DNA of 64,000 nucleotides from Escherichia coli (GTDB taxonomy: Bacteria; Pseudomonadota; Gammaproteobacteria; Enterobacterales; Enterobacteriaceae): assembly GCF_030013595.1 (NCBI RefSeq), contig NZ_CP122768.1; one strand, given 5' to 3'. Below are positions 36,001 through 42,000 of the stretch, piece after piece. Within the stretch, counting starts at the first letter, position 1, and the number at the start of each line of letters is the position of its first letter. The position numbers were made by a program.

Positions 36001-39000
36001 ACTCAGCATAACTCTATCACATAGAACCACAGAAAATGAAGCATTGCTCAGGGGGGAGGTACTTATACGAGTTCTCTGAACCGTGATAACCAGTATTTTT
36101 CATTTTGGGTGATTTGTCGTTACAGCTACAGGCAGTTCATGTACTATTAAAAAATAATTAAGGTTAATTAGTATTATTTATAGAAGTATGGTTATGTAAA
36201 TGAACCCTGTAATTCTGTAATTCCACCTTGTAACCCAATCCTGTAGACGAATCTCTCATAAAGATATGCTCATAGAAGTATCTGTACAGAGATATTCTCT
36301 GTAGTAGTACTTGTAACTCTGTCCTTAACTCTCTCTGCTGTAATGTAATCTCGTAACACCTGAATATAAATCTGTCATGTACACACACTGACTGTAATGT
36401 ACTTTGTTAAGTAATGCCTGTTGTGTGGAGGCTATTCTGGCTAAATAAGAGTATGAATCGTCAGTGTCAATAGTGTGGATAACGGTGGTTGAGGGATTTA
36501 CTGTTAATGATCTGCTCTTGCAACTCACCTGATGAGTATTAGTGGTAATACATAATCTTACTCGTAAAAAAGTATACCTTATGCCATTAAACAGCCTTCC
36601 GGAGTGTTGTTTACTATCCGATTGCCTCTGTTACTTCTGTAATGCATTAATACGTGTAACGCCACGTTACTTGTAATATCTGGTTATGGCGTTATGCCTT
36701 CAGCATTTAAAATATTTTATTACCGGAGAGACAGGAAAGTGGAAAGACTTCCGGGATGACGTCAGAATACGTTATTCTAACGGTATTATGTTAACGTTAA
36801 TCACAGCACAAAATAACGAGAGGATAATGGAAGTTAAGACCAAAGAAGACTGGCTATATCAGTTTCGTCGTTGTTTATCCCGGGAGACACTGGAAAAAGT
36901 GATTTCCCACACGCGTTATAAACTTACCCCTGCGGAGCTGGAAGCTTTCAACTCTGCGGTCGATCACCGGCTGGCAGAACTGACCATGAACAAACTTTAC
37001 GATCGTGTTCCCGCTTCAGTCTGGAAATATGTTACCTGATAAATGTTTCTGATGAAGTACAGTCGTCACAATGACATCATATCAGATATTATCTGCGCTG
37101 TGATTGACAGTCACGTATGCCGTTCTCTGTATGGTTCTGATACCCGGGTGTGCTCCCACTTTCTCTGTGGCGCCCGGGGAGTTGTGAACTTGCACGTCTT
37201 CGTGTGATAACGTTTTCTTCAAAAATTACGCCAGCGCTTCTTCCTGTGTTACAGAACACGAGGAAGAAACATGAATACTTACAATGCCAATCCCGGTTAC
37301 GAAATGGATCCCCAGCTCCTGACACACTTTAACCAGCATCTGGATTCATTATTCGGGGTCTATTCGAAGCTGTTACCGTTCAGAATGGATTTTGCTTACC
37401 GAAAAAACACATTCAGCTACGGATGCGCCTGCAGGTACGCCATGTGCGCGGAGATGCTGCAACTGATTAACGAGGTGGGAGAGAAACTGGTCGGGTATGC
37501 CTGGGTAATGGAATATACGGAACGTAAAGGGCTTCACATTCATTTTGTGGGCTATCTGAACGGTCAGAGCCACAGGAGTTCGTATCTGGTATCCAGATTG
37601 ATGGGAGATATCTGGAGGCGGGTTACCGATGGTAATGGTTACTACCACTGGTGCCGGTTTAATAAAAATTATCCGGTAAACATTAATCACGTCATTCACT
37701 ATTCAGACCACAAAGCGGTGAATGCTTTACGCTATGCCATTAGCTACCTTGCCAAACGAGAACAGAAAGAATGTGGCATCGTTCTTGGTTGCAGCAGGCT
37801 TCCTGAAAAAAGTCACCGGGGGCGACCGCGACTGGACAGCACCCTGCCGGGGATATGTTCTCAGGTATAAGGTTCTGAGCGACAACTGCGGACTGGCTCT
37901 AATCTTTGCAGTCGGTTCCGGAGGCTACTTCAGAGGCACTATGCATTTTTTACGATGTGGTTACTCCGTATGAACGAAACCATACGGAGACTTAACCATA
38001 CATGACACACCAGTAAAACCCCTGATGGCTGCAACGGTGCTGCATGCGCTGGATGTCCATCTCTGCTTGCTGACAGTTTTTTACGTCGGTGGGCCATTGT
38101 GTGACAACCACAGTGCTGTAACAGCAGCCTGCCTGTTTTACCTCACCCCCATTCCAGATTTTTAACTGAACCGCCATTCACACCCTGACCACGCTGCCCG
38201 TACCGGGACGGTTGCTGCCTGCGTGTCGTCTGGCGGCTGAGGAATATGACGATGTACGCAAAATCTTTTCTCGCATTCGATGGCAACGGACGCCTGACCG
38301 GTGCCCGTACTGCACAGACAGCGCCTTACGATCGATACACCTGTCACCTTTGCGGCAGTGCGCTCAGATACCACCCGCAATACGATACCGAACGTCCCTG
38401 GTTTGAACACACTGGCGAAGGGCTGGCTGAGCACGGTCATGAGTGCCCTTATGTCAGACCGGAGCGCAGAGAAATACTGTTGATTAAACGCTTACAGCAA
38501 TGGGTACCGGATGCCTTACCCGTGGTGCGTAAAACCAGCTGGCACTGCAGACAATGTCACCACGATTATTATGGGGAGCAGTACTGCACACACTGTCATA
38601 CAGGGCGTTTCAGTGAGGAGGCAGTGGCAGGATGAACGGTCTAAAAACGGGGCTGGGGATCACGCCAGGTGAGCACATTATCAGTGCCGATTCTGCGCTC
38701 AGCAGAAATATCAGGCATTGTTTCTGCCTTTCCTGTCGTGGTCGGTTGATTTTGCAGACAGATGCTCAGGGGGCGTGGTTTGAGCATGATTTACATGCCC
38801 TGACCGCGCAACAGAAGACGGCCTGTGTGGTGCTGAATCCGGAAAAATCCCATCCTTACATTGATGATATGGCGATGTTTTTATCGCCATTACCTGTCGT
38901 GCTGGAGTGGCATTGTGTGATGTGCGGGCAGCATTTTCCCGGGAAAAAGTTCTGTGAAGCCTGTGGCACGGGGATCTATTCCAGAGCGGTATGTACAAAG

Positions 39001-42000
39001 TATGTTTACAGCTACCAGCCAGACTTGTTCCAGGACTGTGGAAGTGCGAGCACTTAATCCGAAATGCCTGGTCTGCGCAGGGCGTTCAATCCAACTCGAC
39101 GAACATCTTCCAGTGTTGAATTAGCTGATAGCTCCTCCATTTTTTGTAAAGAACAGTTATACAGGCTTATTTGAACAGCTCTCTTTTTATTCAAACACAG
39201 CCAACAATACTCAGATGTAAGTATTTTTATATTCATGAATGGAGAGGCAAGGTCTGATGAATTTAATTACAGAACGTTCTTGAGCCATTGTCCTCTCCAG
39301 TTCATTAAAATAGTTACTACGTTAATTCACACCCAGCGCCTTATAAACAGCATCAACCGGGTCTGAGTAAAAACTCACCTGAAACTTGGTAAATAACTCT
39401 GCCGGAACCGTTGGAATATCCATAGCCGAGGACATCGGCAACAGAACCCGTTTTGCACCGCTGTCGAAGGCGAGCTGTAAACTGGCGGCAAGATCCTGCA
39501 CCGGGTTAATTACCCCACCAAGCGTCATACTGCCCAACACCACCATCTGTTCCTGCACCGGTTTTGCCAGCAATATCGAACATAAAGCGATAAGCGCAGC
39601 AAGACTGGTTGCGGTGCTTGGGCCAGTATTATGCAGTTCAACGACATGAAGGTGATATTCATGATCGGAGAATTTCGCGGCCGCGCTTACCCGATTCAAA
39701 TTGCCTTTGAAGTAATCGAAACCGACGCGGATAGCTTCTTTCGCGGAGGTATTTGAACCCAGACCCGATACACTATGCTTACCATTACCGGCAGTCATCT
39801 GTGTTTCAAAACGATACAGCCCGGTCATGCCGCTTTCTGCCTGAGTGACCAGATGCACAACACCCGGCTTTGGCATTCCGGCAGGAATAAGTTCGCTGCC
39901 GCCCTGTTCCGGTACGCTCACAAAAAACTCTTCCAGCGTTTCGTTGTCGATGTAGCTAAAGTTCACATCGAAGAACTCCAGACCGCCCAGTTTTTTAAGT
40001 TGCTCTTTCACGCGGCGACGAACTTCCATCGCATAGGTCAGGCAGACTCGCACATCTTCTTTGCTGTACGCGCCATCGGGATGCATGAGTTTTAACAACC
40101 CCGACACGGTACGTCGAACGGCAATAACGTCACGCTGGTTGAGGTTGTTACCCAGCTTAAAGAATTTATCAATCGCATCAGAGAAACTGCGTTTGCGCAT
40201 TTCGCGCATATATTCAGCGAGATAATCCGTAATCAGCCCGTAACGGTTGGTAAAAAATTCCGGGCGCATTTTGGGGATTTCCCAACCGGGAATATAGGCA
40301 TGAAAGCGGTCGAAAAATGCAGTATCAATCATCGCAGCCGGAAATGGCGCCAGCAAATGGCTGGTTTTAACGAGAGTCTCTACGCTTTGATTGATGTTGC
40401 CGACGAAAACCATCGACGCTTTACCTTCAATCGAATCTCTGCCGCGAGAGAAAGATCCTGACGCCATGTAATCTTTCATGATTTGCACGCCGTCTTTATC
40501 TTTGAAAGTGATCCCCGCGACTTCGTCGAACGCTACCACATCCCACATGCCAACCAGGCCGATCTGGCGACTGGCCATGTTGTAGAACAGGTTGGCAACG
40601 GTCGTTTGCCCGCCAGAAACTAACAGGGAGTTAGGAGAACACTCTTTATACACATGGCTTTTACCGGTGCCACGCGGCCCCAGCTCGCAAACGTTATAGT
40701 TGTTCTCCACGAACGGGATCATACGGGTGATAAGGTGCCATTTGGTGCGTTGCTCAATATTGGCGGGCTCCATACCCACTGAGCGCAGCAGCACATCGAT
40801 CCACTGATCACGGTTAAAGTGTTTACGCGCATCGAACACTTCTTCCATATCCATATTCGGCATCTGGATAGGCTTAAGCGTCATCAATGAGAAGGGCGAA
40901 GTCTTCTGCCCTTCTTCAAAGAAATAGTTGACGGTAATCATGCACCAGATACCGCCCGTTAGTAGCTTCTCGTTGTCTTTAACCATCTGCGAGGGCACCA
41001 GCGCGTCTTTGATGCCGAGGTTAGAAAGCTGGGCTTCGTAAACGTCTTTTTTCTGGTTCAGTTTCACCGACACTTTATCGATGATTTTGTACGAACCACG
41101 CTCGCGGATCAGCGACTTCACTTTCTCTGCTTCATCCGGGCGCACATAGTTATCAGCCAGAATACGCTTAACGTTTTGCAACCCTTGCTCGACCACGTCG
41201 TCATCGTCAGAGGCGCAGTACATGCCGAGCAGATACTCCAGCACATACACCGGGACGTTTGCCCCTTCCTTGAGTTGCTTGGTGAGATCTTTACGCACCA
41301 CACGACCAGCAAAATGCTGGTTCAGCAGGGCGTCCAGATCGTAACCCTCGGAGGCAATTTCCCCTGCGGATACGCCTGAAACAGGTAAATCATGATGGGT
41401 TTGCATATCGCCTCACTTAGAAGAAATCATCCTGGAACGCCAGATCGATAATGACCGGGTACTTCTGATACCCCGTTTCCGTTTGTGCGTCTTCCAGTAT
41501 CAACCAGTACTCATTGCGACGGTTGAAGCTAGCGCCAATCAGCTTCAGCGTAACTTCGCGTACGCGTTTTTCCATGGTGTTGTTATCACTGTCAAAGCTG
41601 ATGCGCTCTTTGCCCGAGACCACATTGTTGGCGTTGTCGACAATGTAAATGTTCAGGATACGCGGTTCATAAAGTTCGCCCACCGGATGCGTCTGCAACA
41701 GGCTCACTTTATCGATATTGTTCACCAGCTTAATCATGGGGTGGTAAGCGACAATATCCACCGGGCGGCGCTGTGGCTGTTTTTCTGCGGCGGTTTTTTG
41801 CAGGGCTTTTATCTGCAATACCGGAACGCAAACCTCCTGCAACATGGTGCCGCCATGAACGAAGCGCGCGCCGCCAGAGAAATGGAAGCGCTGGATCCCT
41901 TTCGGAATCAGGAACTCGCTGTTGTCGCTCACGCCTGCGGTATCTGCCACTTTTCCTTTCCAGCAAAAATCATCGGCGGGAAGCTGATGGCCGATAATAA

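What the first reader, a model, noticed from the sequence alone, without database searches (positions are those of the whole stretch)
36190..39057. Uncharacterised module next to the BREX remnant: TGTAA repeat array, HUH-motif protein and two overlapping paralogous zinc-ribbon proteins
This is the strongest candidate for an undescribed system in the window. A 500-bp region carries at least 12 degenerate YTGTAAY heptamers and a perfect palindrome (GTAACGCCACGTTAC, 36656-36670). It is followed on the same strand by a small ORF and an HUH-motif protein (LHIHF plus a downstream Tyr, 37271-37870). Next come two tandem ORFs (38246-38635 and 38632-39057) that are clear paralogs, sharing colinear CxxC...WFEH...PE..LPVV..WHCxxC...CxxC(T)G motifs, with an ATGA overlap implying co-translation. 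None of these resembles a well-characterised defence or replication protein that I can name; the placement between alpA and brxL fits a satellite-like replication module or an accessory defence cassette.
Basis: partly seen in the sequence, partly recalled or inferred. Interest (0 to 1): 0.7.

Follow-up and report, generated by a model that had tools for sequence, protein, structure and literature searches.

The report
Backbone genes of an E. coli island
This stretch is not a new defence system but the conserved, poorly understood "housekeeping" core of a very common E. coli genomic island: a silencing protein, a DNA-nicking enzyme and two zinc-finger partner proteins that probably help the island copy or move itself, with BREX riding beside them as cargo.

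Summary
The sequence features are real. The TGTAA motifs are strongly enriched on one strand. The HUH/Tyr protein exists, and the two zinc-ribbon ORFs are true paralogs with an ATGA overlap. The "perfect palindrome" is only 6-bp arms around a 3-nt spacer, and BREX is complete rather than a remnant.

All four genes belong to catalogued families:
- an Hha2/Hha3-type H-NS co-modulator;
- a YagK/YfjJ "inovirus Gp2-type" HUH protein;
- two DUF7828 + Zn_ribbon_11 proteins.

Parts of the block occur in 3806 of 5426 complete E. coli genomes. No PADLOC defence model matches any of the four at E ≤ 0.001.

In eight distant relatives from Enterobacterales, HUH, AlpA and zinc-ribbon genes sit together. They lie next to DUF932/antirestriction/RadC/CbtA backbone genes and upstream of variable cargo, which is often defence. 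One protein fuses the zinc-ribbon and HUH-like domains.

I also found an invariant 18-mer (36161-36178) upstream of every short, AT-hook-bearing HUH gene examined. It is followed by hypervariable 12-13-bp tandem repeats, which here are the TGTAA array.

Best reading: this is an island replication/mobilisation and control core, with BREX as cargo. The mechanism is inferred, not shown.

The parts
34491..34697 (-). alpA-like excisionase/transcription activator gene (68 aa)
   Evidence: Matches PHROG excisionase families and TIGR01764. It is 60-79% identical to the AlpA genes that lie between the HUH and zinc-ribbon genes in distant islands. dN/dS 0.02-0.06.
35080..35871 (-). 263-aa protein of unknown function, transcribed divergently from the hha/HUH genes
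   Evidence: No Pfam hit; only a weak N-terminal match to a ribbon-helix-helix family. Present next to the control region in every window-type locus. dN/dS 0.2-0.3.
35872..36826 (.). 955-bp AT-rich (34-39% GC) intergenic control region
   Evidence: No annotated gene in RefSeq and no Rfam hit. Found in 751 of 5426 E. coli genomes at 75-100% identity. Composition.
36161..36178 (+). Invariant 18-mer AGGTTAATTAGTATTATT, the right half of an imperfect AT-rich palindrome spanning about 36148-36178. Candidate nick/recognition site or operator for the HUH gene.
   Evidence: Chance expectation in the window is 0.02. Identical in loci of three architectures whose flanks do not align. In 68 of 80 public contigs with enough downstream sequence, a short HUH gene follows on the same strand within 1.3 kb; 11 of the other 12 look like chance hits and 1 has an insertion. 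Absent from loci carrying long-type YagK/YfjJ genes even though they have AlpA. Hairpin potential is not conserved.
36195..36254 (+). Tandem array of 13-bp units (TGTAA-N8), 4-5 copies here
   Evidence: Copy number is 0-9 in related loci. In CP4-57-like loci the same position holds 12-13-bp repeats of other sequence.
36283..36420 (+). Second, looser cluster of TGTA(A/C/G) motifs
   Evidence: Better conserved between loci than the first array.
36638..36677 (+). Three TGTAA at 17-bp spacing around the inverted repeat GTAACG-CCA-CGTTAC (36656-36670), about 150-190 bp upstream of hha
   Evidence: The inverted repeat is not conserved in related loci.
36827..37039 (+). hha paralog (Hha2/Hha3 type), an H-NS co-modulator
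   Evidence: NF008191 104 bits against a cut-off of 90. RefSeq annotation. Literature: PMC4864382, PMC6480617. dN/dS 0.07.
37238..37268 (+). Predicted RNA hairpin (13-bp stem, ACAG loop) that buries the Shine-Dalgarno sequence of the HUH gene
   Evidence: Fold of 37040-37270, z=-2.4. The sequence is conserved in RM10410. A role in translational control is inferred.
37271..37870 (+). 199-aa HUH single-strand DNA nuclease-like protein (YagK/YfjJ, 'inovirus Gp2-type') with a C-terminal RGRP AT-hook
37871..38251 (+). 381-bp spacer with a perfect 9-bp-stem hairpin at 37964-37989
   Evidence: z=-2.4. No alpA remnant, although alpA occupies this position in other lineages. It is the least conserved segment of the block (82% identity).
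38252..38635 (+). Zinc-ribbon protein A (DUF7828 + Zn_ribbon_11)
38632..39057 (+). Zinc-ribbon protein B, a paralog of A; its start overlaps the stop of A (ATGA)
   Evidence: Pfam E=1e-21 and 5e-17. 32% identical to A. dN/dS 0.15. A pair of paralogs is also present in the Hafnia alvei-type loci L027/L028 and in the metagenome loci L016/L017.
39089..52750 (-). Cargo: complete BREX-1 system (brxL, pglZ, pglX, brxC, brxB, brxA), starting where homology to BREX-less islands ends
   Evidence: The homology block to L004/L006/L007 ends at 39088. Annotation of the near-identical genome NZ_CP148466.

Best explanation
The region is the conserved core of a tyrosine-integrase genomic island of the CP4-57/CP4-44 type, inserted next to yghD/gsp. 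It is not a defence system.

**Shown**
- The four genes are an Hha2/3-type H-NS co-modulator, a minimal Rep-class HUH protein with an AT-hook tail, and two DUF7828/Zn_ribbon_11 paralogs.
- HUH, AlpA and zinc-ribbon genes travel together across Enterobacterales islands, and are once fused.
- They border the slot where variable cargo sits, which here holds BREX.
- An invariant 18-mer followed by hypervariable 12-13-bp tandem repeats (here the TGTAA array) always precedes this HUH subfamily on the same strand.

**Inferred**
- H-NS/Hha keeps the AT-rich control region silent.
- When AlpA is made, the integrase excises the island.
- The HUH protein, docked by its AT-hook on the AT-rich 18-mer region, nicks one strand through Tyr159. 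This primes rolling-circle copying, or single-strand transfer, of the circle.
- The zinc-ribbon proteins act as its DNA-recognition or loading partners.
For: - **Family assignments:**
- **Prevalence:** 3806 of 5426 E. coli genomes carry part of the block and 620 carry all of it.
- **Conserved synteny within E. coli:**
- **Triad in distant relatives:** [YagK/YfjJ][AlpA][ZnR x1-2] in 8 of 8 contexts from distant relatives: 6 of 6 zinc-ribbon homologues and both Hafnia-type loci fetched through the HUH gene (L027/L028).
- **Natural fusion:** P0273 joins a zinc-ribbon protein to a YagK/YfjJ-like domain (hhalign probability 93.8%, E=1.8e-7).
- **18-mer to HUH linkage:** 68 of 80 contigs, with essentially all exceptions being chance hits. 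The motif tracks the AT-hook HUH subfamily rather than AlpA.
- **Cargo slot:** cargo downstream of the module differs between loci and is often defence.
- **Selection:** purifying on all genes.
- **Possible free circle:** a 41-kb circular record filed as a plasmid is a whole island of this type, from integrase to DUF4942. Its gene table lists no plasmid replication gene.
- **Related islands:** Pseudomonas islands share int + alpA + a Gp2-like protein + RadC as core, with defence cargo (PMC12595487; the preprint version was read).
Against: - No experiment on any YagK/YfjJ or DUF7828 protein was found.
- The tandem repeats do not co-vary with the HUH protein. CP4-57-like loci with 95-99% identical HUH proteins carry different repeats. 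One natural allele (L044) lacks the first TGTAA array. They are therefore unlikely to be strict Rep-specific iterons.
- The palindrome/hairpin at the 18-mer is not conserved.
- There is no helicase, primase or transfer gene in the module.
- The 41-kb circle is a single record, the PLSDB gene table is incomplete, and the record could be an assembly artefact.
- Many database copies of these genes are truncated or disrupted by IS elements.
Confidence: 0.5

Rival explanations
1. Pure regulatory switch. The HUH-like and zinc-ribbon proteins are DNA-binding regulators that have lost or never use nuclease activity. Together with Hha/H-NS and AlpA they control expression or excision of the island. The 18-mer is an operator/promoter element and the repeats tune promoter spacing or H-NS nucleation.
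For: - The best sigma-70-like match in the region (10 of 12) uses the first TGTAA unit as its -35 and the end of the 18-mer as its -10, pointing toward the 263-aa/alpA operon.
- The region is AT-rich and an hha gene is embedded in it.
- The repeats vary in number like contingency loci and do not co-vary with the HUH protein.
- An HUH-less YagK/YfjJ paralog follows the zinc-ribbon genes in relatives.
- A hairpin over the HUH ribosome-binding site suggests tight control.
Against: - The catalytic residues E81, H89, H91 and Y159 are invariant across 38 homologues down to 16-20% identity. That is hard to explain without catalysis.
- In CP4-57-like loci the 18-mer lies downstream of a same-strand DUF3987 gene, where a leftward promoter makes little sense.
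Confidence: 0.25
2. Mobilisation relaxase. The HUH protein nicks an oriT-like site (the 18-mer region) so that a co-resident conjugative plasmid, or a phage, can transfer the excised island. There is no autonomous replication.
For: - Same nuclease evidence as the best explanation.
- The islands carry no transfer genes of their own, yet are spread across Enterobacterales.
- From general knowledge, Rep-type HUH proteins serve as relaxases in integrative mobilisable elements.
- Related Pseudomonas islands are moved by a jumbo phage (PMC12595487).
Against: - The motif order (HUH before Tyr) is that of Rep proteins, not classical relaxases (HUH-superfamily reviews, from general knowledge).
- There is no coupling-protein or accessory relaxosome gene in the module.
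- The hha2/hha3 study detected these alleles on no plasmid (PMC4864382).
Confidence: 0.15
3. Accessory defence or anti-defence cassette that works with, or regulates, the adjacent BREX system.
For: - It sits immediately next to brxL.
- Defence genes often follow the zinc-ribbon genes in relatives.
- There is a very weak PADLOC match of zinc-ribbon B to PDC-S64 (E=0.0033, 14.5 bits).
Against: - No PADLOC match at E <= 0.001 for any of the four proteins.
- The module occurs with unrelated cargo or none, and 99-100% identical copies occur without BREX.
- Homology to BREX-less islands ends exactly at 39088, so BREX is an insertion into a cargo slot.
- The conserved partners are AlpA and island backbone genes, not defence genes.
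Confidence: 0.05
4. Decaying relic of an old mobile element with no present function.
For: - Many truncated, frameshifted or IS-interrupted copies in the databases.
- IS1 fragments flank this copy.
- The island family is classed as 'cryptic prophage' in K-12.
Against: - dN/dS is 0.07-0.31 for the hha, HUH and zinc-ribbon genes between copies with dS of 0.15-0.42.
- Intact reading frames in at least 620 genomes.
- Catalytic residues and the 18-mer are invariant across genera.
Confidence: 0.05

Closest known systems
E. coli K-12 cryptic prophage CP4-57 (intA-yfjH-alpA-yfjI-yfjJ, followed by abpAB and rnlAB) and the related CP4-44/CP4-6 islands
   Same: - Same island family: P4-type integrase, AlpA, a YagK/YfjJ-family protein, then defence cargo, then the GTPase/DUF932/antirestriction/RadC/CbeA-CbtA backbone.
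- A 62%-identical short HUH gene sits in CP4-57-like loci behind alpA and a DUF3987 gene, preceded by the same 18-mer.
   Different: - K-12 YfjJ itself is the long type, without the AT-hook and without the 18-mer.
- K-12 has no zinc-ribbon or hha genes at this position.
- In the window, alpA lies on the opposite strand behind a 263-aa gene.
Hha2/Hha3 of enteroaggregative E. coli 042 (Prieto et al. 2016; Bernabeu et al. 2019)
   Same: The small ORF is this kind of island-borne Hha paralog. Those papers link it to flu/yeeR islands and to repression of Ag43 with H-NS. An Ag43 gene lies 7 kb to the left in this island.
   Different: The papers did not analyse the neighbouring HUH and zinc-ribbon genes or the upstream repeats.
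Rolling-circle replication initiators of the HUH superfamily (phiX174 gpA, pMV158 RepB, CRESS-virus Rep, parvovirus NS1) and their bipartite origins (conserved nick site plus Rep-specific repeats)
   Same: - The layout of an invariant AT-rich site followed by tandem short repeats. The 18-mer contains TAGTATTAT, 8 of 9 identical to the circovirus/nanovirus nonanucleotide TAGTATTAC (sequence; the viral consensus is from memory).
   Different: - No helicase domain.
- The repeats do not co-vary with the protein.
- No conserved hairpin.
- The site lies 140-1100 bp from the gene.
- The element is chromosomally integrated.
- Activity is untested.
Pseudomonas tmRNA-integrated genomic islands moved by a jumbo phage (PNAS 2025, PMC12595487)
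   Same: A core of integrase + AlpA + inovirus Gp2-like protein + RadC, with variable defence cargo between the core parts.
   Different: A different genus and integration site. No zinc-ribbon or Hha genes are reported. Homology of the Gp2-like proteins to this one was not tested here.
IS91/Helitron-type HUH transposases with an N-terminal zinc-binding domain
   Same: A zinc-binding module combined with an HUH domain. The same order is seen in the fusion protein P0273.
   Different: - This is only an architectural analogy recalled from memory.
- No sequence match was seen.
- Here the two parts are normally separate genes.
- The HUH protein has one invariant Tyr.

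Membership tests
HUH endonuclease superfamily, Rep class | His-hydrophobic-His metal-binding motif on a beta-strand | tested here: met
   L-H89-I-H91-F. Both His are invariant in 38 homologues and lie in strand 87-97 of the model.
HUH endonuclease superfamily, Rep class | Catalytic Tyr (YxxK) on a helix, C-terminal to the HUH motif (the Rep order, not the relaxase order) | tested here: met
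   Y159-L-A-K162. Y159 is invariant and K162 is at least 90% conserved. It lies in helix 147-161. Y155 is conserved only in the short subfamily.
HUH endonuclease superfamily, Rep class | Structural similarity to solved HUH nuclease domains | tested here: inconclusive
   [not shown]
HUH endonuclease superfamily, Rep class | Site-specific single-strand nicking with a covalent 5'-phosphotyrosine | not testable with these tools
   Needs biochemistry.
Pfam YagK_YfjJ_C (PF11726) / REP_ORF2-G2P (PF23343) | Significant match to the family profile | tested here: met
   E=5.6e-4 and 1.6e-4, both weak. Profile search links it to clear members. RefSeq names it 'inovirus-type Gp2 protein'.
Hha/YmoA family | Score above the curated NCBIfam cut-off | tested here: met
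   NF008191: 104.3 bits against a cut-off of 90.
DUF7828 + Zn_ribbon_11 ('putative zinc ribbon protein', formerly DUF3279) | Both Pfam domains in order, with the conserved Cys/His ligands | tested here: met
   C31, C34, H53 and C99 are invariant; C65, C102, C112 and C115 are at least 90% conserved in 41 sequences.
Known anti-phage defence systems (PADLOC-DB v2) | Match of any component to a defence-system model | tested here: not met
   No match at E <= 0.001 for the four proteins. The only listing is 14.5 bits, E=0.0033, to PDC-S64 over a C-terminal tail.
Rolling-circle double-strand origin (nick locus + bind locus) | Conserved nick-region sequence linked in cis to the rep gene | tested here: met
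   An 18-mer that is invariant across architectures, always upstream on the same strand. Whether it is actually nicked is untested.
Rolling-circle double-strand origin (nick locus + bind locus) | Repeats (iterons) that co-vary with the initiator protein | tested here: not met
   HUH proteins 95-99% identical sit next to different repeat types. One allele lacks the first TGTAA array.
Rolling-circle double-strand origin (nick locus + bind locus) | Conserved hairpin presenting the nick site | tested here: not met
   Only L009 folds strongly (z=-6.7). The window and three others are no better than shuffles.
Phage satellite (P4-like / PICI) | Relatives in phage genomes or capsid/packaging-hijack genes | tested here: not met
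   The zinc-ribbon protein has no match in 50,697 phage records. The HUH protein has only two weak Acinetobacter hits. PHROGs gives one family of unknown function. Helper dependence was not testable.
   All six are annotated as intact in the 99.9%-identical genome. The brxL and pglZ ORFs are intact in the window.

The most novel reading that the evidence does not exclude
The HUH-AlpA-zinc-ribbon triad, together with the invariant AGGTTAATTAGTATTATT site, is a previously unrecognised self-copying or self-transfer engine. It would belong to the commonest class of enterobacterial genomic islands (the 'cryptic prophage' CP4 family and its relatives). The DUF7828 zinc-ribbon proteins would be a new kind of origin-recognition partner for a minimal HUH nickase. 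That would explain how islands lacking phage or conjugation genes persist after excision and carry defence systems such as BREX between strains.
Probability: 0.25. Interest if true: 0.75.

Novelty: new variant of a known kind. Interest (0 to 1): 0.42.

Why it matters
Islands of this family are in most E. coli genomes. They carry virulence genes (Ag43), toxin-antitoxin genes and defence genes (BREX here; AbpAB and RnlAB in K-12). Yet nobody knows what their conserved YagK/YfjJ and zinc-ribbon genes do, or how the islands survive excision and spread.

A defined HUH nickase with a candidate target site gives a directly testable handle on that question. It also marks a predictable cargo slot in which to look for new defence systems.

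For the scan itself, the useful result is negative. The module is island backbone, not a new defence system, and BREX beside it is intact.

Tried and rejected
- **Rfam:** nothing in 34.4-39.4 kb.
- **RNA folds:** the conserved left part of the intergenic region folds no better than shuffles (z=0.02).
- **alpA remnant:** none in the 381-bp gap between the HUH and zinc-ribbon genes.
- **Solved structures for the HUH protein:** none by sequence.
- **Repeats in distant loci:** TGTAA repeats were sought in the intergenic regions of distant loci and not found.
- **Iteron hypothesis:** repeats co-varying with the HUH protein was tested and not supported.
- **Cruciform hypothesis:** hairpin formation at the 18-mer was not supported.
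- **Wasted scan:** the genome-contig scan with the zinc-ribbon profile gave only 3 loci, all E. coli-like contigs inside misbinned MAGs.
- **Literature:** searches for DUF3279, DUF7828, Ybl85, YfjJ and YagK found no functional study. The alpA+HUH search returned noise.
- **Small Acinetobacter plasmid:** the 4.8-kb plasmid carrying a Gp2-type gene also has its own Rep, so it does not show that the family replicates plasmids.

Full report
**1. What is in the sequence**

The window is E. coli. Bases 36000-39300 are 99.9% identical to several complete genomes.

In the RefSeq annotation of the best match, the finding lies inside a large island next to yghD/gsp. Reading left to right the island contains:
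- DUF4942, DUF957, DUF5983, CbtA toxin, YeeU antitoxin, DUF987, RadC, an antirestriction protein, DUF932, Ag43, a GTPase, a hypothetical protein and an IS1 fragment;
- a 190-aa gene, an alpA-like gene and a 263-aa gene, all on the minus strand;
- a 955-bp gene-free region;
- hha, an "inovirus-type Gp2 protein" and two "putative zinc ribbon proteins" on the plus strand;
- a complete BREX-1 system on the minus strand.

All six genes are present.

**2. Checking the observation**

- Exact YTGTAAY occurs 8 times, always on the plus strand, between 36207 and 36677.
- TGTAA occurs 11 times on the plus strand and once on the minus strand in the intergenic region. None of 5000 Markov simulations reached 11.
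- The first cluster is a head-to-tail array of 13-bp units (TGTAA-N8, 36195-36254).
- The "perfect palindrome" is GTAACG-CCA-CGTTAC, with 6-bp arms and a 3-nt spacer. It is not conserved in related loci.
The first zinc-ribbon gene most likely starts at 38252.

**3. Family assignments**

- The small ORF is an Hha-family gene. It scores 104 bits on NF008191 against a cut-off of 90, and the true start is 36827. It is the island-borne Hha2/Hha3 type described in strain 042, where these paralogs modulate Ag43 together with H-NS (PMC4864382, PMC6480617).
- The 199-aa protein weakly matches Pfam REP_ORF2-G2P and YagK_YfjJ_C.
- Both zinc-ribbon proteins are DUF7828 + Zn_ribbon_11.
- None of the four matches a PADLOC defence model at E ≤ 0.001.
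- I found no functional study of the YagK/YfjJ or zinc-ribbon families.

**4. The HUH protein**

An alignment of 38 homologues, down to 16-20% identity, keeps W78, E81, H89, H91 and Y159 invariant. R38, D40 and K162 are nearly invariant.

The order is HUH first, then Y-x-x-K. From general knowledge of the superfamily, this is the order of Rep proteins rather than relaxases.

The AlphaFold model is confident (pLDDT 87, pTM 0.82). It puts the HUH motif on a strand and the Tyr on a helix.

The short subfamily to which this protein belongs ends in an RGRP AT-hook, present in 47 of 53 unique relatives.

**5. The zinc-ribbon proteins**

The family is small: 249 cluster representatives among 1.84 billion proteins. 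The AFDB hits are all from Enterobacterales.

The model (pLDDT 86) has two small zinc-binding modules joined by a helix. It has no solved-structure match.

All four genes are under purifying selection, with dN/dS of 0.07-0.31.

**6. Context is the most informative evidence**

Within E. coli, a block from 34420 to 39088 recurs at about 86-91% identity in islands at other sites. It comprises alpA, the 263-aa gene, the intergenic region, hha, HUH, zinc-ribbon A and zinc-ribbon B. In those islands it is followed by an HUH-less YagK/YfjJ paralog rather than BREX.

In six of six distant zinc-ribbon homologues examined, the gene lies in the order [YagK/YfjJ][AlpA][zinc-ribbon x1-2]. Two Hafnia alvei-type loci reached through the HUH gene show the same order, with a zinc-ribbon pair. 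Where the contigs extend far enough, the set is divergent from the DUF932/antirestriction/RadC/CbeA-CbtA backbone.

What follows the zinc-ribbon genes is variable cargo:
- McrBC (L010);
- Kiwa KwaA plus a type I restriction system (L016);
- an SMEK/MC6/DUF2326 set and then the integrase (L013);
- a 1832-aa helicase or a CDI toxin (L027, L028).

In K-12 CP4-57, AbpAB and RnlAB follow yfjJ.

One protein, P0273, fuses a zinc-ribbon protein to a YagK/YfjJ-like domain (hhalign probability 93.8%).

The window's alpA is 60-79% identical to the alpA genes in these triads.

Together this shows that the finding is island backbone, that BREX occupies a cargo slot, and that the zinc-ribbon proteins are functionally tied to the HUH protein and AlpA.

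**7.

Comparing upstream regions of short-type HUH genes exposed an invariant 18-mer, AGGTTAATTAGTATTATT, at 36161-36178.

A scan of public metagenome contigs returned more than 120 stretches. The main results were:
- Of 80 with at least 1.5 kb downstream, 68 carry a short HUH gene on the same strand within 1.3 kb.
- Of the other 12, 11 show no extended similarity or island genes and are chance hits. One has an insertion.
- The site is shared by three architectures whose flanks do not align: window-type; CP4-57-like, behind alpA and a DUF3987 gene; and a third with alpA after the HUH gene.
- It is absent, at up to three mismatches or indels, from loci with long-type YagK/YfjJ genes, although these have AlpA. 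It therefore tracks the AT-hook HUH subfamily, not AlpA.

Immediately after the site come 12-13-bp tandem repeats whose sequence differs by lineage. They are TGTAA-N8 here and GTTATGTT-, GGTGGTAT- or TTATG-rich elsewhere. Their copy number varies from 0 to 9.

The layout resembles the nick-plus-bind organisation of rolling-circle origins, but two predictions failed:
- The repeats do not co-vary with the HUH protein. Proteins that are 95-99% identical sit next to different repeats.
- A hairpin at the site is not conserved.

The TGTAA array is thus real, but it is a fast-evolving feature. The constrained element is the 18-mer.

**8. Other hints**

- The best promoter-like match uses the first TGTAA unit as its -35 and the end of the 18-mer as its -10, pointing leftward.
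- A predicted hairpin buries the HUH ribosome-binding site.
- A 41-kb circular record deposited as a non-mobilizable plasmid is an entire island of this type, from integrase to DUF4942. Its gene table, which is incomplete, lists no plasmid replication gene. It may be an excised circle or an assembly artefact.
- Pseudomonas islands moved by a jumbo phage share the int/alpA/Gp2-like/RadC core with defence cargo (PMC12595487; the preprint version was read).

**9. Verdict**

The interpretation as an undescribed system or defence cassette is not supported.

The most likely function is an island control and replication/mobilisation core built on a minimal HUH nickase, with zinc-ribbon partners and an AT-rich target site. 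Only the family assignments, the synteny and the cis-site linkage are shown here. Nicking, replication and the role of the zinc-ribbon proteins are inferred.

The main rival is that these proteins are purely regulatory.

Interest is moderate. The genes are catalogued and extremely common, but their function is an open question with a now well-defined experimental entry point.

Noticed in passing
window 36161-36178 (just left of the finding's start): An invariant 18-mer, AGGTTAATTAGTATTATT, precedes every short AT-hook HUH gene examined, across three otherwise unalignable architectures. It contains TAGTATTAT, 8 of 9 identical to the circovirus/nanovirus origin nonanucleotide (the viral consensus is from memory).
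   Followed up: yes
CP088535.1 (loci L022, L023): A 41,067-bp circular 'plasmid' of E. coli E16EC0562 is a whole island of this family (integrase ... hha, Gp2, zinc-ribbon x2 ... CbtA, DUF4942). Its gene table lists no plasmid replication gene. It may be an excised island circle or an assembly artefact.
   Followed up: partly
protein P0273, locus L008 2797-4161: A natural 454-aa fusion of a DUF7828/Zn_ribbon_11 protein to a YagK/YfjJ-like domain in which the HUH motif is reduced to H-A-L. It lies next to a separate 350-aa YagK/YfjJ gene and alpA.
   Followed up: partly
window 37238-37268: A 13-bp-stem hairpin with an ACAG loop sequesters the Shine-Dalgarno sequence (GAGGA) of the HUH gene. It is conserved in strain RM10410. 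This suggests translational control.
   Followed up: no
window 36180-36189 and 36272-36281; locus L044: A 10-bp direct repeat, ATAGAAGTAT, flanks the first TGTAA array. A metagenome allele (L044) has exactly this interval deleted while all genes remain intact.
   Followed up: partly
locus L006 about 7390-7440: In strain GN02461 the repeat array is extended by a (CTCTAC)n microsatellite of about 8 units. This is another sign that the stretch is slippage-prone.
   Followed up: no
window 39058-39321: Homology to BREX-less islands stops at 39088, 31 bp after the zinc-ribbon B stop codon. In relatives an HUH-less YagK/YfjJ paralog, and sometimes a second alpA, follow here. In the window they are replaced by the 3' end of brxL, which marks the cargo junction.
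   Followed up: partly
loci L018-L020: Contigs 85-86% identical at the protein level to the E. coli zinc-ribbon gene are binned in MAGs labelled Collinsella sp. and Bacillota bacterium. This is almost certainly binning contamination.
   Followed up: no
window 35080-35871 and 33833-34405 (minus strand): Two proteins (263 aa and 190 aa) with no Pfam match flank alpA. The 263-aa protein is 96-99% conserved at the DNA level between islands and has only a faint ribbon-helix-helix-like N-terminus. The 190-aa gene lies outside the block shared with the other islands (homology starts at 34420).
   Followed up: partly
window 37964-37989: A perfect 9-bp-stem, 8-nt-loop hairpin (CTCCGTATG-AACGAAAC-CATACGGAG) in the 381-bp spacer between the HUH and zinc-ribbon genes, with no T-run after it.
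   Followed up: no
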